DNA from: a virus
Lineage: Duplodnaviria > Heunggongvirae > Uroviricota > Caudoviricetes
IMG/VR virus record: IMGVR_UViG_2648501186_000011
Span: 1-19,270 of that record
Strand: one strand, 5' to 3'
Length of the DNA: 19,270 bases
Position 1 is the first letter of the stretch. Each line of letters opens with the position of its first letter. Position numbers and translations under genes: made by a program. Shown here in pieces: positions 1-14,292 of the stretch. The notes below the pieces were generated by a model. The model saw only the letters and a program-made list of their open reading frames with translations, did no database searches and was not told where the DNA came from.

Positions 1-960
1 TCCACCAGACGCATAACGGAAAGTAAATCCGCGACCGTGCGCTTTGCCGGCAGAATGAGGAACGTTAAGAGTTAGATCCATGAGTCCATCTTGACCATTG
101 GTACGGAAAGCACCAAAGTAGTTAAGATCTCTCGCTGTCTGGTCTTCCAAATAGTTAGCTGTTTTGGTTAACAGATACCCACCATGCTTAGTATTGGTAT
201 TCTTCTTGATGTAAGCAGCATCGGCACTACCTTCAATAGAATCAATTCGCTGATTAGCTGCGGCAATTGCGGCATCAGTAGAAGATTTATTCTGGTCTAC
301 CTTGTTGTTAATTGCTGTATGGTTGCTATTAACTGTCCCCGTAAGATTGGTGATCTTCGTGTCGGCATCGCGTTTATTATTTGCTACGGTCGTTTCTATG
401 GATGATTTATTTGCTGCGATAGTATTCGTTAAGTTAGTAACGTTGGTATTAGTCTGATCAACTCGTGCATTAATATCTGTCTTGTTCTTGTTAATTGTTG
501 CGTTGATAGTATCGCGGGTTGAAGTAATAGTCTGATTCAGTTCAGTCTTAGCAGCCGCCAGAGCGTTAGCCGCTTCGGTTTTATTGTTACCTACTGTGGT
601 AGTCAAAGCATCAATTCGTTTGTTGGCTGCGGTGTCGCCAGCAGTGATTGAAGCATTGAGAGCATCACGGGTAGAAGTGATAGTCTGATTCAGTTCAGCT
701 TTAGCACTAGCCAGATTATTAGCGGCTTCTTGTTTGTTGGAAGCAATAACACGGTCAGTGCTAGTTTTGTTATTGTCTACTTTCGTATTCAGTTCAGCGT
801 GTTTTTCTGGAGAAACACTAATTTGGACTACGTTATTATTTTTGTCTTTGGTGTAAATCACATGATCCGCCAACTGTAAGGCGATCTCACCCTGTGATAA
901 TTGTTCCGGCGTTGGTTTTTTACCAGCCGTTTGTGTGCGTTTAAATTGGATCGACTGCAT
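1..960 (-). CDS. Tail-fibre-like protein, N-terminal 320 codons (3' end runs off the window)
   Basis: Absent from the ORF track because there is no stop inside the window. Manual minus-strand translation from ATG (plus 958-960) stays open for 320 codons to base 1: MQSIQFKRTQTAGKKPTPEQLSQGEIALQLADHVIYTKDKNNNVVQISVSPEKHAELNTK... SD AGGTGA 4 nt upstream. The N-terminus resembles the conserved start of many phage tail-fibre proteins; the body is Asn/Thr/Ala-rich and repetitive. Confidence 0.6.
   Translation of the reverse strand, partial: MQSIQFKRTQTAGKKPTPEQLSQGEIALQLADHVIYTKDKNNNVVQISVSPEKHAELNTKVDNNKTSTDRVIASNKQEAANNLASAKAELNQTITSTRDALNASITAGDTAANKRIDALTTTVGNNKTEAANALAAAKTELNQTITSTRDTINATINKNKTDINARVDQTNTNVTNLTNTIAANKSSIETTVANNKRDADTKITNLTGTVNSNHTAINNKVDQNKSSTDAAIAAANQRIDSIEGSADAAYIKKNTNTKHGGYLLTKTANYLEDQTARDLNYFGAFRTNGQDGLMDLTLNVPHSAGKAHGRGFTFRYASGG
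511..740. repeat. Imperfect ~152-bp tandem repeat inside the tail-fibre gene
   Basis: Plus 511-590 and 663-740 align at roughly 80% identity by eye (shared core tagtctgattcagttcag). In the protein this gives two copies of AKxELNQTITSTRDxxNAxI about 51 residues apart. Confidence 0.7.
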
Positions 961-974
961 CGAATCACCTCACT

Positions 975-1007
975 ATAAAACAGGAATAAGGGAGGCGTTA
1001 ACCTCCC
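975..1007 (-). terminator. Intrinsic terminator-like hairpin between the 277-aa gene and the fibre gene
   Basis: Palindrome GGGAGG-cgttaa-CCTCCC (plus 990-1007); on the minus-strand RNA it is followed by UUAUUCCUGUUUUAU. Confidence 0.5.
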
Positions 1008-1039: not shown

Positions 1040-1873
1040 TTAGTAATAACCGAAATCGATCCGGTCATGAATCGAAACTACTTCGAGTTCAGCGGCAGTA
1101 GGTTTCTCATTGGTGGAATATACCTTGATCCATTCAGAACGACCGTTTTCCTGAATATTTCGGACACGTAAACGCGGTGCGCCAGAAGTATTACAGGTTA
1201 ATTGCCATGCGCCATGCTCATTAGCTTGAAGGTGAATTAATGATGTATCAGCACCATAAGGGTTAGTGCTAGCCGTTCCTTTGTAGGTTACGAAGCGGTT
1301 TCCTGCTAATGCCTCGCTATCAATACCGCCCGTGAATGGATGTACACCAGCACCGATTCCAAAATCACCCTGACGTAAGATCTTACCTTCGGTAGCAATA
1401 CCCCTTGCCAGAATCCCGCCATCTGGTTCAAGTTTAAATTCCAGTGTTACCGCTTTGTTATCACTACCACGGGTTTTATGTGATGTGACGTAAGCATCGA
1501 ATATACAAAAGTACCCTGTGTTAGCAGCACTATAGCCAGAGTTCACAACATAGAACATACGGAAGCGTAAAGGTGTTTTATCCTCTACCGCTTTCATCAA
1601 CATTGCTTGATGTTCATCGTCAAGAACACGGTTTAATGTGAGTGTCGTCGGTTCCAGTCTACGATAACCAGCAAGTTTCCCCGTAGCGTCCTGATCGTAC
1701 TCTTCCAGAGTTTCTATCTCTGTGGATTCTGTTAACGTAGGGAATGTGGCGATGTTCTCAATAGAACTAAAGCTGGGATCGAAAAAGTCGACCTGATTGG
1801 TAAGCTGATCAGAGATTGAAATCTCTACATGGCTTCCAGTAAAAATATCTAAGTTATCATGCGTAATATTCAT
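1040..1873 (-). CDS. Hypothetical virion structural protein (277 aa), possibly a tail component
   Basis: ORF track; SD AAGGGG 5 nt upstream of the ATG (minus strand). Lies in the structural block between capsid and fibre genes. No family recognised by eye. Confidence 0.6.
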   Translation of the reverse strand: MNITHDNLDIFTGSHVEISISDQLTNQVDFFDPSFSSIENIATFPTLTESTEIETLEEYDQDATGKLAGYRRLEPTTLTLNRVLDDEHQAMLMKAVEDKTPLRFRMFYVVNSGYSAANTGYFCIFDAYVTSHKTRGSDNKAVTLEFKLEPDGGILARGIATEGKILRQGDFGIGAGVHPFTGGIDSEALAGNRFVTYKGTASTNPYGADTSLIHLQANEHGAWQLTCNTSGAPRLRVRNIQENGRSEWIKVYSTNEKPTAAELEVVSIHDRIDFGYY

Positions 1874-2742: not shown

Positions 2743-4797
2743 TCATTCACCTTTTTTCTGAACTACGGTCAGTGCGCTATGGTCCATAACAGCCCAATCA
2801 AGGTCAGCCCATACGCGGAAGTACAGGTTGCCAGCCGCGCGACCTGTGGTATCGTCGCAATCCAGTTCCAGCGATCCGAAGTCTGCAATAACAAGGGAGC
2901 TAAAGTCACCAAACAGCATGGTATCCTGAGCAACTACACCAGAGCCATAGATCGGACGGTTAACCAGCTTGTCACCTTCTACCAGGAAGCCCGGAACGTT
3001 AGCAGCTTTGAGTTGCGCTGCCAGTTCAGCTTTAACAACACCACGGGTAGCAAATGCCAGATCCGCTTCGTTATAACCTTTATCGGTCAGTTCAGCTACC
3101 AGTTTCAGGAACTCGGCATAAGTCCAATCAATCTGTTTAACTTTGCCAGCATCGGTCAGCATCTTAGTCAGGCCATCACGAGCGTTAGTGTTAGCAGCAT
3201 TGGACAGAATCGCTTTTTCCAGAGCGATAGCACTATGTTTCAGCATGTGCTCACCAACGATAGCACCGATGTTAGGCAGAGTGATAGCGGCCTGGCGAGT
3301 TACAGGAACAATTCCATTGAATGTCTTAAGAGTCATCGGCTGTGCTGCAAACTTGATAGTACCTTCACCAGCGGATTGGCCTTCTGCAACAAAACCGAAG
3401 TTTTCCAGATTGCTAGAAGTCAGAGACGGCAGAGAAACAGGACCAGTTGCGTTAATGGTACGAGCGCCCAATTTACCCAGAATCGAGCGTTCCATGATCA
3501 TATCAACGAAGCAATCATGGCGGATTTCTTCACCAACTACTGGTTTCAGGGATTCCATGTTCTGACCAGCACGCAGAGCAGACGCCGGAATGAATACGGA
3601 GTTAGAACGCTGTGCGCGACCACGCGCTGCGGCTTTACGTGCTTCTTCCTGAGAATATTCAGCTTCTGCGCCAGTCAGGGCTTTACCCTCTGCGATTGCA
3701 CGCACAGCCTTATTAAGATCGAAACGGGATTCCAGAGTTTTAATGGTATCGGTCATGGTAATTTTTCCTTTAACAAAAGTTTTAGATTCGGTAGTATTTA
3801 GTGCGCGTGCTTTTTCTTTAAAATTTTCAATAGTCACGGCACTATCTTTAATTGCAGCTTCAATTACGTCTTCGGAGATATTTAGATGTTTTCCGATAGC
3901 ACGAATTTCGGCGGTATCTTCGCGAGAACGTTCAAACGGTTTTTCGTCGTCTTCAATCTTTTCTTCTTCGACTGGTTCGGATGTATTTTCCGTTTCGTCG
4001 TTCTCGTCTGTATCTTTATTTAGTTCTTCTGTTTCTTCCGGTTCATCTTCGGAACGTTCTTCTTTTTCTTCTGGCGTTACTTCTTGCGGTTCTTCCACAT
4101 CTTCGCCACTGTCAGCACTATTTCCAGAATCGGAATCAATTTCTTCATTTTCTTGTTCCTCTTTCTCTTCTTCGGAACGTTTTTCTTCATCTTCCGGTTT
4201 AATTTCTTCGACCGGAGTATCTTTAATTTCGTCTTCCACTTGTTCACCCTCCAAAACAATCATTTCGTTGTCTGTATTTAGAGAGCGTCCAACACCCGCA
4301 TTAAATGGATCTGCGGCACACGTTACAAGACTGCATTCGAAAGGTTGCCAGCGTGTAACATAATAGATCCCTTTGTTAAAATCGGCTTTGCCATCAAGAA
4401 CGTTATAACCGACGCTAACTTGTGAAAGTGTTCCCTCTTTTACCTTCTCAAAGCATTCATTAGCCAGTTGGCCTACTTTGGAGAATTGGACAAGGCAACG
4501 ACCTATACGGTCTTCGTCAATACGAGCGGAGCCAGGAACAATCTTACCGATATGAAGATCCAGATTGTGATTAAACAGAAGACTTGCGTTAGTCTCGTTT
4601 AAAACGGATAGATCAACCGCTGATTCATCGTGTACGAGAATCTCTTTTAATTCGACTTGCTCGCCGTCCTGATTCATGTAATAACGTGTATAAGGAGCCT
4701 CGCTTGAGAAAGCCAATTCAATAATTCGTTCGTCTTTTTCTTCGATAAAATCAGGGGTATCTACCGCAACACTACGACGGAATTGTTTTGTTGTCAT
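2743..4797 (-). CDS. Prohead protease / acidic linker / major capsid protein (HK97 fold) fusion, 684 aa
   Basis: N-terminal ~175 aa carry motifs I associate with HK97-type prohead proteases (LLFNHNLDLHIGK, VSVGY, ECSLVTCAADPFNAG). Residues ~185-300 are extremely Glu/Asp-rich low complexity. The C-terminal ~320 aa look like an HK97-fold capsid domain and the gene sits where a capsid gene belongs, after the portal. SD AAGGTG 4 nt upstream. Confidence 0.7.
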   Translation of the reverse strand: MTTKQFRRSVAVDTPDFIEEKDERIIELAFSSEAPYTRYYMNQDGEQVELKEILVHDESAVDLSVLNETNASLLFNHNLDLHIGKIVPGSARIDEDRIGRCLVQFSKVGQLANECFEKVKEGTLSQVSVGYNVLDGKADFNKGIYYVTRWQPFECSLVTCAADPFNAGVGRSLNTDNEMIVLEGEQVEDEIKDTPVEEIKPEDEEKRSEEEKEEQENEEIDSDSGNSADSGEDVEEPQEVTPEEKEERSEDEPEETEELNKDTDENDETENTSEPVEEEKIEDDEKPFERSREDTAEIRAIGKHLNISEDVIEAAIKDSAVTIENFKEKARALNTTESKTFVKGKITMTDTIKTLESRFDLNKAVRAIAEGKALTGAEAEYSQEEARKAAARGRAQRSNSVFIPASALRAGQNMESLKPVVGEEIRHDCFVDMIMERSILGKLGARTINATGPVSLPSLTSSNLENFGFVAEGQSAGEGTIKFAAQPMTLKTFNGIVPVTRQAAITLPNIGAIVGEHMLKHSAIALEKAILSNAANTNARDGLTKMLTDAGKVKQIDWTYAEFLKLVAELTDKGYNEADLAFATRGVVKAELAAQLKAANVPGFLVEGDKLVNRPIYGSGVVAQDTMLFGDFSSLVIADFGSLELDCDDTTGRAAGNLYFRVWADLDWAVMDHSALTVVQKKGE

Positions 4798-12490: not shown

Positions 12491-12564
12491 AGTGGAAATC
12501 CTCTAAAAGAAAGTGAATCAAGTAAGTTCACTATTATTTATAAAGAGAAAATTCTTGTTATTAT

Positions 12565-12882
12565 GAAAAGAGTGATCTGGTAGAGTCCAAAACTGGTCTG
12601 TACTTGAAAGGTGATTGGATTCAGTCGGGCTAAAGCCCTCCTTCATAGATTTTGATTAAATCATCACCAAAACGAAGAAGTATCTTTAGAATATAAGAAT
12701 CTTTCTTTTGAAGAAATAATAATAATCAAACAAGATGGACGCTCCCTGAGCGTCTGCGAAGCATATCTAATTCCTTCCAGTATCATCAAAGTGATCTAGA
12801 ATCAGTTTGTAATCATTATCTTCAAAGTGATTGTAATATCTTTATCTTGAAAGTGATTATAACTACCTTCTTCAAAGTGATC
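12565..12882. repeat. Direct-repeat family (A/T)TCTTSAAAGTGAT, four good and two degenerate copies
   Basis: Cores at 12787-12795, 12823-12831, 12849-12857 and 12873-12881 spaced 24-36 bp; degenerate copies near 12565-12577 and 12603-12616. Confidence 0.7.
12738..12754. other. Perfect palindrome GACGCTC-cct-GAGCGTC
   Basis: 7-bp inverted repeat with a 3-nt spacer in non-coding DNA. Confidence 0.4.
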
Positions 12883-12943
12883 TTGAATCATCATGTAAAC
12901 CAGATTAAAATCCCTTCCTGAATGATTTCAAAACAGATTACTC

Positions 12944-12959
12944 GCGCCCCGCAGGGCGC
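12944..12959 (+). other. Hairpin GCGCCC-CGCA-GGGCGC followed by a T-rich stretch
   Basis: 6-bp stem then ATAATATTCTTTTCTTTT on the plus strand; terminator-like, sharing the GCCCCGCAGG core with 6921-6940. Confidence 0.4.
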
Positions 12960-13074
12960 ATAATATTCTTTTCTTTTATCTACAATCTCTTTCATACCAA
13001 CTCTTTACTATTAACTATTACATATTACATATGACACCCTTCTAAGCCTTGTCCTGTCTGGGTTTCCGTGATTT

Positions 13075-13166
13075 TTGTACATCCTTGTACATCGTAGTAC
13101 ATGTGTTGTACATCCTTGTACATCCTTGTACACGTCACGTACATAGATGTACATCCTTGTACATCT
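13075..13166. repeat. Helically phased array of nine TTGTACATCC-type repeats
   Basis: GTACA begins at 13077, 13087, 13097, 13108, 13118, 13128, 13139, 13149 and 13159, a 10-11 bp period, so every copy is on one face of the helix. Confidence 0.8.
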
Positions 13167-13249
13167 AGGTTAAAAACCAATCAAAAATAGCCATAAAATC
13201 ACCATTTTGAGGGTGTATTTGCTCAATATTTCATCGTGTTTTTGTGATT

Positions 13250-13322
13250 CTGTACAGCAAATCTGTGTCTTGTACACCTTGTACATCTAATACATGTCTT
13301 GTACACCTTGTACATCTAATAC
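13250..13322. repeat. Second TGTACA cluster with two ~28-bp direct repeats
   Basis: gtcttgtacaccttgtacatctaatac occurs twice (about 13267-13293 and 13296-13322). GTACA at 13252, 13272, 13281, 13301 and 13310. Confidence 0.75.
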
Positions 13323-13495
13323 CGGGGAATAGCCCCCCTAATACCGGGGGATTTGTGGATACTAATACCGGGGAAAAAAAACCTAATACCGGGGGATTTT
13401 TATGTGGATGAATGATGGCCTAATCCGGGGGATTCTCTTACAGGACGGTTATCATTTACCCCCTAATACCGGGGAAATTAACCTAATCCGGGGGA
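13316..13495. repeat. Seven iteron-like direct repeats CTAAT(A)CCGGGG(G)A with DnaA-box-like motifs
   Basis: Copies start at 13316, 13338, 13362, 13383, 13420, 13463 and 13483, mostly 20-24 bp apart. TGTGGATAc (13353-13361) and TGTGGATGA (13403-13411) resemble the DnaA box TGTGGATAA. An AT-rich stretch follows at 13540-13640. Confidence 0.75.
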
Positions 13496-13643
13496 TTTTT
13501 GCTTCCAAAACGGGGATATCGCGGGGAAACCCTTAAATTCATTCAAATATTTTGATAGAAAATTCTTGTATATTATTTAACCAAAAAATCATCAAAAATC
13601 GCTGTAGCTTAATGATTTAAAAGGAATTTTCAAAAGGTCACCG

Positions 13644-13652
13644 TGCTATAAT
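13644..13652 (+). promoter_or_regulatory. Possible extended -10 promoter element (TGcTATAAT)
   Basis: TATAAT at 13647-13652 with TG at 13644-13645; only a weak -35 (TTTTCA region). Confidence 0.35.
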
Positions 13653-13732
13653 AGGTTATAAAGGTTGATAATCATTATTCGCCATTTTCACACAAAAATT
13701 TTGATAGTCTTTTCTCGCTTAGGTCAAGGGTA

Positions 13733-13761
13733 TTGACATCTGTCAAGGATTATTTTATGCT
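13733..13761 (+). promoter_or_regulatory. Sigma70-like promoter TTGACA, 17-nt spacer, TATGCT, with overlapping palindrome
   Basis: -35 at 13733-13738, -10 at 13756-13761. The palindrome TTGACA-tc-TGTCAA (13733-13746) recalls the 11980-12000 operator-like site. Confidence 0.5.
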
Positions 13762-13942
13762 TTTTCTCGTTGGTAGGGGTTGAAATTTTCAAAACAATCC
13801 CCATATAGATGATAAGCAAGATTTTCTCGCTACTAAATACATGTGAGCGATGATTATGACTCACTGACCTGAAAAGCTGAAACAGCATAAAATTCTAAAA
13901 AATGCGGTTTTCAGTTTTTCAAAAAGGGGTACAGGAGTCAGA

Positions 13943-13984
13943 ATGATTAAAAAATCGCCAGATAATATTCTGTCTATAGCGTAA
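13943..13984 (+). other. 13-codon mini-ORF (MIKKSPDNILSIA) with a strong SD
   Basis: AGGAG (13932-13936) 6 nt before the ATG at 13943; stop at 13982-13984. It is followed about 35 nt later by the terminator hairpin at 14021-14041, a leader-peptide-like arrangement. Confidence 0.35.
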
Positions 13985-14020
13985 AACTAAGCGCATTACA
14001 GAATAATATAAATATCATCG

Positions 14021-14041
14021 AGAGCGGTTAACGCTCTTTTT
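14021..14041 (+). terminator. Intrinsic terminator/attenuator upstream of the first rightward gene
   Basis: AGAGCG-GUUAA-CGCUCU followed by UUUUU, 20 nt upstream of the SD for the 14077 gene. Confidence 0.6.
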
Positions 14042-14076
14042 AATAAGAAAGATTTGTCTCTTAAGGGGAAGAAACT

Positions 14077-14292
14077 ATGAAAAACTCAATCATGGGGCGT
14101 CCGGTTAAAATCACCGAAGAAAAATACAAAGAAATCCTGATTGCTTACCACTCACAAGTTAATGCAACGAATGCTGATCGTGATGCACTTCTGGCAAAAT
14201 ATGGAATTACTCGCCGGACGTTTTCAAGGCTAGCTCATCGTTACCCAAATGTGAAAGTCGTAACTAAAGTGGTGAATGTAGAAATAGCATAA
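14077..14292 (+). CDS. Small DNA-binding protein, GRP arm plus resolvase/Hin-type HTH (71 aa)
   Basis: SD AAGGGG 8 nt upstream. MGRPVKIT...LLAKYGITRRTFSRLAHRY is paralogous to the 9567..9794 product. Confidence 0.65.
   Translation: MKNSIMGRPVKITEEKYKEILIAYHSQVNATNADRDALLAKYGITRRTFSRLAHRYPNVKVVTKVVNVEIA

What the first reader, a model, noticed from the sequence alone, without database searches (positions are those of the whole stretch)
1..960. Tail-fibre-like gene missed by the ORF track, with an internal 152-bp repeat
The gene has no stop inside the window and so is absent from the ORF list, but the frame is open for 320 codons from a good SD and ATG. Its Asn/Thr/Ala-rich body contains two copies of a ~26-residue motif 51 residues apart, the kind of modular shaft where recombination changes host range.
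Basis: seen in the sequence. Interest (0 to 1): 0.4.

Follow-up and report, generated by a model that had tools for sequence, protein, structure and literature searches.

The report
Prophage tail fibre with coiled-coil rod
This is the first third of a real tail-fibre gene from an uncultured E. coli-type prophage: an attachment knob, then a long helical rod containing an old in-register duplication, then a body almost identical to the long-tail-fibre protein of virulent T4-like phages. It is a clear but ordinary example of fibre-gene shuffling between phages.

Summary
On the minus strand, an ATG at 960 (GAGGTG 5 nt upstream, in-frame stop 4 codons upstream) opens a frame that runs 320 codons off the window edge. 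The repeat is real, but its offset is 153 bp (51 codons), not 152. Its core is 93 nt/31 aa (77% identical), not 26 residues.

The protein is a chimeric tail fibre:
- aa 1-51 form a gp37-type N-terminal anchor domain.
- aa 54-243 are predicted as one continuous alpha-helix (pLDDT 96-99) with 3.63-residue hydrophobic periodicity, i.e. a coiled-coil rod. The 51-residue duplication spans 14.05 turns, so it keeps register.
- aa 258-320 are 92% identical in protein (96.6% nt over 177 nt) to Krischvirus (RB49-like) gp37.

[quoted passage not shown] Among relatives the rod is a recombination mosaic with 0, 1 or 2 motif copies.

The upstream 277-aa gene is a tail-tube paralogue ending in a gp36-like C-terminus. 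It is a plausible docking adaptor, but this is inferred.

Verdict: the tail-fibre reading is supported; this is a new member of a known kind, of modest interest.

The parts
1..960 (-). 5' third (320 codons, no stop) of a tail-fibre gene; runs off the left edge of the window
   Evidence: open frame, start, stops in the other frames. PHROG tail-fibre hits. Full-length relatives of 1121-1230 aa.
966..971 (-). Shine-Dalgarno GAGGTG, 5 nt before the ATG at 960
   Evidence: Read directly from the sequence. In-frame TGA at 970-972.
808..960 (-). aa 1-51: gp37-type N-terminal anchor domain (small beta domain)
   Evidence: PHROG 1699, aa 3-48, E 1.5e-20. 28-39% identity to gp37 aa 4-54 of phages JSE and ELT4. 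AF2 strands at aa 26-48. BFVD fold hits to gp37 N-termini and Mtd-N-domain proteins: probability about 1.0, rmsd 1.3-3 A, but E only 5e-3 to 7e-2.
232..801 (-). aa 54-243: Asn/Thr/Ala-rich continuous alpha-helix, inferred trimeric coiled-coil rod (about 28 nm). It is absent from Krischvirus gp37.
   Evidence: AF2 helix 54-243 with pLDDT 96-99. Ile/Leu/Val periodicity of 3.63 residues, power 3.85 against a shuffled maximum of 1.46. Self-identity peaks at offsets 11, 18, 29, 51 and 62. Sub-threshold Pfam Apolipoprotein/Filament hits. In gp37 the two flanking segments are only about 12 residues apart.
647..739 (-). Repeat copy 1 (aa 75-105, NKQEAANNLASAKAELNQTITSTRDALNASI)
   Evidence: Present at 65-100% identity in most relatives.
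494..586 (-). Repeat copy 2 (aa 126-156, NKTEAANALAAAKTELNQTITSTRDTINATI), 153 nt (51 codons) downstream of copy 1
   Evidence: Present only in the subgroup window/L001/L004/L005/P0001-P0004.
1..189 (-). aa 258-320: start of the gp37-type fibre body, nearly identical to gp37 aa 67-129 of the Krischvirus-like phage ELT4
   Evidence: 98.8% nt over 165 nt (H1). 96.6% nt over 177 nt. 92% aa over 63 residues. PHROG 8378, aa 245-318.
990..1007 (-). Terminator-like hairpin GGGAGGTTAACGCCTCCC with a T-rich tail, between the upstream gene and the fibre start
   Evidence: Consensus scan only. Function not shown.
1040..1873 (-). 277-aa tail-tube-protein paralogue with a C-terminal extension ending in a gp36-like C-terminus; candidate docking adaptor for the fibre (inferred)
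   Evidence: aa 9-163 are 31% identical (E 1e-15) to the tube protein encoded just after the fibre gene in relatives. The AF2 model matches the lambda gpV, YDC107 and 80alpha tube proteins, E 8e-8 to 1e-6. The last ~30 aa align end-to-end with Krischvirus gp36 C-termini, SW 57 against 18.9 +/- 4.1, 0/2000 shuffles. The (I/V)DFGx(F/Y) end is conserved across the family, with variable fibre-like inserts before it. The same gene order is seen in the distant phage record DCP80.

Best explanation
Window 1-960 (minus strand) encodes the virion-proximal third of a receptor-binding fibre. The phage is an uncultured temperate, siphovirus-type prophage lineage of E. coli and other Enterobacterales.

The protein is a three-part chimera:
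1. aa 1-51: a small beta domain homologous to the N-terminus of T4-type gp37. In T4 this is the part that binds trimeric gp36, so here it is read as the anchor to the virion.
2. aa 54-243: one uninterrupted alpha-helix. In the trimer it would form a mixed hendecad/heptad coiled-coil rod about 28 nm long, acting as a spacer.
3. aa 258 onward: the gp37 body of RB49-like (Krischvirus) phages.

In close relatives the body continues to the C-terminus. There it has a Gp34_trimer-type domain and a self-cleaving Peptidase_S74 intramolecular chaperone, and it is accompanied by a gp38-like adhesin gene.

The 51-residue (153-bp) repeat is an old in-frame duplication of one rod segment. It spans 14.05 helical turns, so it lengthens the rod by about 7.5 nm without breaking coiled-coil register. 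It also supplies internal homology for recombination. Relatives show that the rod is indeed a recombination mosaic of variable length.

Shown here: the ORF, the repeat, the homologies, the helix prediction and periodicity, and the mosaicism.

Inferred: trimeric state, spacer function, and the docking partner. The best candidate partner is the upstream 277-aa tail-tube paralogue, whose C-terminus mimics that of gp36.
For: - ORF and start.
- Repeat statistics.
- Fibre family hits.
- Homology to Krischvirus gp37: N-domain 28-39% identity; aa 258-320 92% aa and 96.6-98.8% nt.
- Relatives' fibres are collinear with gp37 aa 71-920 at up to 92-94% aa and 91-92% nt over 2.5 kb.
- Relatives carry Pfam Gp34_trimer (E 1.4e-26) and Peptidase_S74 (E 9.4e-14), and a Gp38_N protein two genes downstream.
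- Helix 54-243 has pLDDT 96-99, and the hydrophobic periodicity is 3.63 residues.
- Mosaic structure and copy number of 0, 1 or 2 among relatives.
- Synonymous changes exceed non-synonymous ones against relatives (40 vs 18, 22 vs 16, 55 vs 34 codons).
- Phage context in the window: TerL, portal and protease-capsid fusion.
- The upstream gene has a tail-tube fold plus a gp36-like C-terminus.
- Literature: gp36 binds the gp37 N-terminal region (PMC3004832). RB49 gp37 has a self-cleaving C-terminal chaperone and then binds gp38 (PMC9569957). Fibres with an N-terminal coiled coil plus S74 occur among cultured coliphages (RBPseg class TC7, PMC12143355).
Against: - Only 320 codons lie in the window. 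Everything distal (S74 domain, adhesin, receptor specificity) is read from relatives that are 88-95% identical, and fibres are exactly where relatives differ.
- The structure model is a monomer. A long single helix is what AF2 gives for any coiled-coil-like sequence, so oligomeric state is not shown.
- aa 246-320 are modelled at low confidence (pLDDT 30-50).
- No Pfam or NCBIfam model covers the N-domain or the rod, and no solved structure matches by sequence.
- The BFVD fold matches to the N-domain have E values of only 5e-3 to 7e-2.
- The KPT-type motif shared with gp36 recurs several times inside fibre proteins. The adaptor similarity could therefore reflect a common structural element rather than a specific docking surface.
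- Some relatives are damaged by IS elements, so activity of this particular prophage is unproven.
Confidence: 0.8

Rival explanations
1. It is a neck or collar fibre (a whisker-like appendage) rather than a tail-tip side fibre. On this reading the fibre hangs from a tube-like ring at the head-proximal end of the tail, as T4 fibritin and phi29 neck appendages do. Its long coiled coil serves to reach down along the tail.
For: - Gene position: the fibre gene and its tube-paralogue neighbour sit between the head-completion genes and the tail-tube gene. That is where the tail-terminator gene normally lies, not after the tape-measure and tip genes.
- An N-terminal anchor followed by a long alpha-helical coiled coil is the fibritin layout.
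- The upstream protein has a tube/terminator-type fold.
Against: - In relatives the distal 900 residues are a complete gp37 homologue with a gp38-type adhesin, i.e. a bona fide receptor-binding fibre.
- Gene order is weak evidence for position on the virion.
- There is no sequence similarity to fibritin.
- This rival concerns only the attachment site, not the identity as a receptor-binding fibre.
Confidence: 0.15
2. It is a decaying remnant: a truncated or inactive fibre gene of a defective prophage with no present function.
For: - The window ends inside the gene, so intactness cannot be checked.
- Some relatives carry IS2 or ISKpn26 insertions in neighbouring structural genes.
- Many database homologues are partial.
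Against: - 320 codons are open with an intact start and SD.
- Ten relatives have intact 1121-1230-aa genes.
- Differences from relatives are mostly synonymous.
- The partial homologues are consistent with contig ends and mis-called starts.
- The neighbouring head genes in the window are intact.
Confidence: 0.05
3. The 'repeat' is only a by-product of low-complexity Asn/Thr/Ala composition, or it is a template/variable repeat pair of a diversity-generating retroelement.
For: The composition is strongly biased (49% N+T+A). Asn-rich codons are typical of DGR targets.
Against: - Composition-preserving shuffles never reach the observed self-alignment (152 against a maximum of 108; z = 8.4 at offset 51).
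- At DNA level 72/93 positions match, and 11 of 18 differing codons are synonymous.
- The mismatches between copies are of all types and are not adenine-specific.
- No reverse transcriptase turned up in the Pfam scans of 18 of the window's larger ORFs.
Confidence: 0.02

Closest known systems
gp37, distal long-tail-fibre subunit of RB49-like phages (Krischvirus: ELT4, JSE, RB49, Phi1) and the S16/T2-type gp37-gp38 system
   Same: - The N-terminal domain is homologous (28-39% identity).
- aa 258-320 are 92% identical in protein, 96.6-98.8% nt.
- Relatives are collinear with gp37 aa 71-920 at up to 94% aa. They share the Gp34_trimer-type domain and the C-terminal Peptidase_S74 self-cleaving chaperone, and have a gp38_N-type adhesin gene nearby (PMC9569957).
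   Different: - A ~206-residue helical coiled-coil segment lies between the N-domain and the body, where gp37 has about 12 residues.
- The host element is a temperate siphovirus-type prophage with lambda-type terminase and portal and, in relatives, a tape-measure/tail-tip module, not a T4-like myovirus.
- No gp34, gp35 or gp36 genes are present.
Coliphage fibres with an N-terminal coiled coil and a C-terminal Peptidase_S74 domain (RBPseg structural class TC7; T5 L-shaped fibre pb1 type)
   Same: Overall architecture, as seen in relatives: an anchor, then a coiled-coil region, then a beta-structured body, then a self-cleaving S74 chaperone (PMC12143355).
   Different: No detectable sequence similarity was established here; the comparison is architectural only. 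In this case the body is a gp37 homologue.
Trimeric alpha-helical coiled-coil fibres: T4 fibritin (wac) and reovirus sigma-1 tail
   Same: An N-terminal attachment element followed by a long parallel coiled coil that acts as a rod. The weakest-of-hits similarity to the sigma-1 coiled coil has E 0.38, which is not significant.
   Different: There is no homology. Fibritin ends in a foldon and is not a receptor-binding adhesin. Here the rod is only the proximal fifth of a ~1150-aa fibre.
Lambda Stf/Tfa, P2 gpH and T4 gp37/gp38 mosaicism (horizontal exchange of fibre modules among unrelated phages)
   Same: The phenomenon is the same: fibre segments are shared between temperate and virulent phages of different morphotypes. 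gp38-like adhesins also occur in Stx prophages (44.6% aa).
   Different: In relatives the shared block is unusually long and recent (2.5 kb at 91-92% nt). The classical examples are from my own knowledge of the literature and were not compared by sequence here.

Membership tests
T4-type distal long-tail-fibre subunit gp37 (RB49/S16 subtype) | N-terminal (gp36-binding) domain homologous to gp37 N-terminus | tested here: met
   PHROG 1699, aa 3-48, E 1.5e-20. 28-39% identity to JSE/ELT4 gp37 aa 4-54, E 1e-10. BFVD fold hits to many gp37 N-termini (E values only 5e-3 to 7e-2).
T4-type distal long-tail-fibre subunit gp37 (RB49/S16 subtype) | gp37 shaft/body homology following the N-domain | tested here: met
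   aa 258-320 against ELT4 gp37 aa 67-129: 92% aa, 96.6% nt over 177 nt. The remainder is outside the window. In relatives the homology is collinear to the C-terminus.
T4-type distal long-tail-fibre subunit gp37 (RB49/S16 subtype) | N-domain directly continuous with the beta-structured body (no long helical insert) | tested here: not met
   About 206 residues (aa 52-257), predicted as a single helix, separate the two parts. gp37 has about 12 residues there.
T4-type distal long-tail-fibre subunit gp37 (RB49/S16 subtype) | C-terminal self-cleaving Peptidase_S74 chaperone and a separate gp38 adhesin | not testable with these tools
   This part lies beyond the window edge. Relatives have PF13884 (E 9.4e-14) and a Gp38_N protein (E 3.6e-15).
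T4-type distal long-tail-fibre subunit gp37 (RB49/S16 subtype) | Partner genes gp34/gp35/gp36 and a myovirus (contractile-tail) context | tested here: not met
   tblastn of JSE gp34 C-terminal part, gp35 and gp36 against the window and the 28-kb relative L001 finds only a 17-28-aa KPT motif. The context is lambda-type TerL and portal in the window, and tube protein, tape measure and tail tip in relatives.
Trimeric alpha-helical coiled-coil fibre rod | Long uninterrupted alpha-helix | tested here: met
   AF2 helix aa 54-243, pLDDT 96-99.
Trimeric alpha-helical coiled-coil fibre rod | Hydrophobic periodicity between 3.5 (heptad) and 3.67 (hendecad) | tested here: met
   The Ile/Leu/Val spectrum peaks at 3.63 residues, power 3.85 against a shuffled maximum of 1.46. 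Self-identity peaks at offsets 11, 18, 29 and 51.
Trimeric alpha-helical coiled-coil fibre rod | Parallel homotrimer | not testable with these tools
   Only monomer prediction is available. The trimeric state is inferred from the fibre context.
Tandem DNA repeat array | Head-to-tail copies detectable as an array | tested here: not met
   TRF finds nothing at score >= 30. Only a 93-nt core of each 153-nt unit is well conserved (77%), although the offset-51 alignment extends weakly over 119 residues.
Diversity-generating retroelement target | Adenine-specific differences between repeat copies and a nearby reverse transcriptase | tested here: not met
   Mismatches are of all ten types. No reverse transcriptase turned up in the Pfam scans of 18 of the window's larger ORFs.
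Lambda Stf-type side tail fibre | Sequence homology to Stf and a Tfa-type assembly chaperone | not tested
   No Stf or Tfa sequence was compared. No Pfam hit pointing to it appeared in the window part or in the relatives.

The most novel reading that the evidence does not exclude
A temperate siphovirus lineage has captured essentially the whole distal half-fibre of virulent RB49-like myoviruses. In relatives the shared block is 91-92% nt identical over 2.5 kb; in this window it is 96.6-98.8% over the visible 165-177 nt. The lineage mounts this fibre without gp34, gp35 or gp36, using two adaptations. One is a tail-tube paralogue that has acquired a gp36-like C-terminal stub as the socket. The other is a ~28-nm hendecad coiled coil inserted behind the gp37 N-domain, which replaces the reach of the missing proximal half-fibre. 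On this reading, prophages of this lineage are a standing reservoir from which T-even-like phages exchange host-range modules, and the rod's in-register 51-residue units are the length-tuning element.
Probability: 0.3. Interest if true: 0.5.

Novelty: new member of a known kind. Interest (0 to 1): 0.3.

Why it matters
- Annotation: it shows that a gene-sized feature was lost from the ORF track purely because it runs off the window. It also assigns that gene firmly as a tail fibre.
- Gene flow: it documents very recent exchange between a prophage fibre and the gp37 of virulent Krischvirus phages. Those phages are candidates for phage therapy, so resident prophages may supply or receive host-range modules.
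- Mechanism: the coiled-coil insert plus the gp36-like tail on a tube-protein paralogue gives a concrete, testable model of how a myovirus long-tail-fibre module can be fitted onto a non-contractile tail.

None of this overturns current understanding. Fibre mosaicism, coiled-coil shafts, S74 chaperones and gp38-like adhesins in temperate phages are all established.

Tried and rejected
- Tandem Repeats Finder on 1-1100 found nothing, so the repeat is a dispersed in-frame duplication core, not a scored array.
- Pfam on the N-terminal 60 aa and on aa 248-320 at E <= 10 gave no hit. NCBIfam on the fragment, a full-length relative and the 277-aa ORF gave no hit.
- The PDB sequence search of the 320 aa gave nothing significant (best E 0.38, reovirus sigma-1 coiled coil).
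- The PDB fold search with the fibre model gave no meaningful match, because the model is dominated by one helix.
- tblastn of the rod alone (aa 52-259) against phages gave no match. This is inconclusive because BLAST's low-complexity filter is on.
- An apparent rod match in phage FL37 (H24) proved to be an over-extended alignment onto the gp37 N-domain. Krischvirus gp37 has no rod.
- The plasmid collection gave no match.
- Rfam and tRNA scans of the window found nothing.
- The DGR idea was rejected.
- gp35/gp36 homologues in the prophage were not found.
- The YDC107 tail tube (best fold hit of the 277-aa ORF) is not related by sequence to the relatives' tube protein.
- The promoter scan was no better than shuffles (6 sites against 6.8 expected).

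Full report
**1. Observation**

The minus strand of window 1-960 carries an ATG at 960-958. It is preceded by GAGGTG (971-966, 5-nt spacer) and by an in-frame TGA four codons upstream. The frame stays open for 320 codons to base 1, while the other five frames contain 9-43 stops. The gene is missing from the ORF list only because ORFs that run off the source are not reported.

The body (aa 52-257) is 49% Asn+Thr+Ala.

The repeat exists. The two copies are 647-739 and 494-586, 93 nt each, 72/93 identical, with starts 153 nt (51 codons) apart. The protein copies are aa 75-105 and 126-156, 24/31 identical.

The repeat is far beyond chance:
- Identity at offset 51 has z = 8.4.
- The best ungapped self-alignment scores 152, against 55 +/- 9 (maximum 108) in composition-preserving shuffles.
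- The copies differ at 11 synonymous and 7 non-synonymous codons. This is an old duplication kept in frame, not a recent slip.

**2. What the protein is**

PHROGs places aa 3-48 in 'long tail fiber distal subunit' (phrog_1699, E 1.5e-20) and aa 245-318 in 'tail fiber protein' (phrog_8378, E 6.9e-15). Pfam and NCBIfam have no model for any part of it.

Against cultured phages, two ends of the fragment match gp37 of RB49-like Krischvirus phages:
- aa 1-51 match gp37 aa 4-54 at 28-39% identity.
- aa 258-320 match gp37 aa 67-129 of phage ELT4 at 92% aa identity (98.8% nt over 165 nt; 96.6% over 177 nt).

In gp37 these two pieces are about 12 residues apart. In the window protein they are about 206 residues apart. 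The Asn/Thr/Ala-rich segment that holds the repeat is therefore an insertion relative to gp37.

**3. The inserted segment is a coiled-coil rod**

AlphaFold2, run with a 19-sequence alignment, predicts one uninterrupted helix from aa 54 to 243 at pLDDT 96-99. It is preceded by a small beta domain (strands at aa 26-48) and followed by a low-confidence region.

Ile/Leu/Val positions have a sharp periodicity of 3.63 residues (power 3.85, against at most 1.46 in 300 shuffles). Self-identity peaks at offsets 11, 18, 29, 51 and 62. This is the signature of a coiled coil built from hendecads and heptads.

Using the standard helical rise of about 0.148 nm per residue, 190 residues give about 28 nm and one 51-residue unit gives about 7.5 nm. 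Since 51/3.63 = 14.05 turns, the duplication preserves register. Trimerisation is inferred from the fibre context and was not tested.

**4. Relatives and what lies beyond the window**

Twenty of 5426 complete E. coli genomes carry near matches to the 960 nt, all chromosomal. There is no plasmid match.

In ten relatives examined, the gene order is conserved:
- portal
- protease-capsid fusion
- two small genes
- 277-aa gene
- fibre (1121-1230 aa)
- lambda-like tail-tube protein
- Gp38_N-domain protein
- two small genes
- tape measure
- tip genes

The relative in strain RMDEC332 is 94% identical over the 320 aa. It continues with a Pfam Gp34_trimer domain (E 1.4e-26) and a C-terminal Peptidase_S74 intramolecular chaperone (E 9.4e-14).

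From aa ~262 to the C-terminus, the relatives' fibres are collinear with Krischvirus gp37 aa 71-920. Two of them (39EVA and 14EC007) reach 92-94% aa and 91-92% nt identity over 2.5 kb to ELT4.

RB49-type gp37 is known to carry a self-cleaving C-terminal chaperone and then to bind a gp38 adhesin monomer (PMC9569957). The relatives have both elements. gp38-like adhesins are also present in Stx prophages (44.6% aa). For this window, these distal features are extrapolation.

**5. Recombination in the rod**

The N-domain and the junction 'AAYIKKNTNT-H-GYLL-KTANY' are conserved among relatives, but the rod between them is a patchwork:
- The window is 100% identical to L004 over gene nt 121-540, 67-80% over 541-720 and 98-100% over 721-960.
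- Against L001, identity falls to 73-85% exactly where the window becomes ELT4-like (nt 781-960).
- The rod end ('YIKK') falls at residue 231, 250, 273 or 278 in complete proteins. The 31-aa motif occurs 0, 1 or 2 times, and the second copy is confined to the window's subgroup.
- Apparently shorter forms in the protein database are N-terminally truncated fragments.

Differences from relatives are predominantly synonymous, which is consistent with a functional gene.

However, this shaft is at the virion-proximal end. Its recombination changes length and links modules, whereas receptor specificity resides distally.

**6. How the fibre may be mounted (inference)**

In T4, trimeric gp36 binds the N-terminal region of gp37 (PMC3004832). 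No gp34, gp35 or gp36 homologue is present in the window or in 28 kb of the relative L001.

The 277-aa gene immediately upstream (1040-1873, minus) is the best candidate partner, for these reasons:
- It is a paralogue of the tail-tube protein encoded just after the fibre gene (31% identity, E 1e-15).
- Its model has the lambda gpV-type tube fold (E 8e-8 to 1e-6).
- Its last ~30 residues align without gaps, and end-to-end, with the C-terminus of Krischvirus gp36 ('...KPT(P/A)AE-x-x-V.....(I/V)DFGx(F/Y)-COOH'). The Smith-Waterman score is 57 against 18.9 +/- 4.1, with 0 of 2000 shuffles reaching it.
- Across the family (Escherichia, Shigella, Salmonella, Providencia, Edwardsiella, Proteus, Enterobacter) this end is conserved. 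More distant members insert extra fibre-like modules before it.
- The phage record DCP80, the closest cultured relative by capsid (36.5% aa), has the same triplet: tube paralogue with a long extension ending in IDFG, then a fibre with a gp37-like N-domain, then a tube protein.

I therefore propose that the tube paralogue supplies a gp36-like socket and the coiled coil supplies reach.

Caveats: the KPT motif recurs inside fibre proteins. Ring-versus-trimer stoichiometry and the position on the tail (tip or neck) are unknown. The gene's position before the tube gene keeps a neck-attached arrangement possible.

**7. Comparison with known systems and novelty**

The fragment meets the gp37 criteria that can be tested (N-domain and start of the body). 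It fails two: direct continuity between N-domain and body, and the gp34-36/myovirus context.

Functionally it resembles known fibres that combine an N-terminal coiled coil with a C-terminal S74 domain (RBPseg class TC7; PMC12143355). Its rod resembles fibritin or sigma-1-type coiled coils, without homology.

PHROG families annotated as tail fibres already align across the N-domain plus rod (phrog_19966 and phrog_20242). No cultured-phage record covers 80% or more of the fragment.

Exchange of fibre modules between temperate and virulent phages is a classical observation. The extent and recency here are notable but not categorically new.

Verdict: a real tail-fibre gene with a real in-register duplication. 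It is a new member of a known kind, of modest interest (0.3). The adaptor model is the part most worth testing.

Noticed in passing
window 12500-14080: A ~1.6-kb stretch has no ORF of 60 aa or more, is AT-rich (GC 0.30-0.37), and is packed with three iteron-like direct-repeat families. TTGTACATCC occurs about 10 times (13075-13177 and 13251-13308). CTAATACCGGGG(G/A)A occurs about 7 times (13312-13499). TCTTCAAAGTGAT occurs about 5 times (12783-12898). It looks like a replication origin, partition site or operator array of the prophage. There is no Rfam hit.
   Followed up: partly
window 1040-1873 (-) and L001:18584-19057: In relatives, the fibre gene is flanked by two paralogous tail-tube-fold proteins: the 277-aa one upstream and a 157-aa one downstream (31% identity, E 1e-15). 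Which is the major tube protein is unknown. The 277-aa one carries a ~110-aa C-terminal extension ending like gp36.
   Followed up: yes
window 990-1007 (-): A GC-rich hairpin (GGGAGGTTAACGCCTCCC) with a T-rich tail lies between the 277-aa gene and the fibre start. It may be a partial terminator setting fibre stoichiometry. This comes from a consensus scan only.
   Followed up: no
window 2743-4797 (-): A single 684-aa ORF fuses a Peptidase_S78 prohead protease domain (aa 59-162) to an HK97-type capsid domain (aa 427-680). The linker region (about window 3750-4350) has extreme AT skew and generates long shadow ORFs on the plus strand.
   Followed up: no
whole window; L014 (PQ671644.1 1-30000): The prophage lineage has no close cultured relative. 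The best capsid match is 36.5% aa, to phage record DCP80. That record is classified as a T4-like Gaprivervirus (141 kb), yet its first ~22 kb encodes a lambda-type terminase, portal and capsid-fusion, plus a tube-paralogue, fibre, tube and tape-measure module like this prophage. It may be a chimeric assembly or an unusual genome.
   Followed up: partly
L004:9230-9736 and equivalents in L001, L006, L007, L009, L010: Relatives encode a 168-aa protein with a T2/S16-type Gp38 N-terminal domain between the tail-tube gene and the tail-chaperone genes. Its nearest phage homologues (44.6% aa) are the 'tail fibre adhesins' of short-tailed Stx phages such as P13374 and phi191.
   Followed up: partly
L010:1-337 and L011:1889-2869: Two relatives have IS elements inside the structural module: IS2 abutting a shortened capsid gene, and ISKpn26 splitting the 140-aa gene. 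Some members of the lineage are therefore defective prophages.
   Followed up: no
P0001-P0024: Most database homologues of the fibre are partial proteins ending at contig edges or starting inside the rod. This suggests that this gene routinely breaks short-read assemblies, probably because fibre segments are shared among co-resident prophages.
   Followed up: partly
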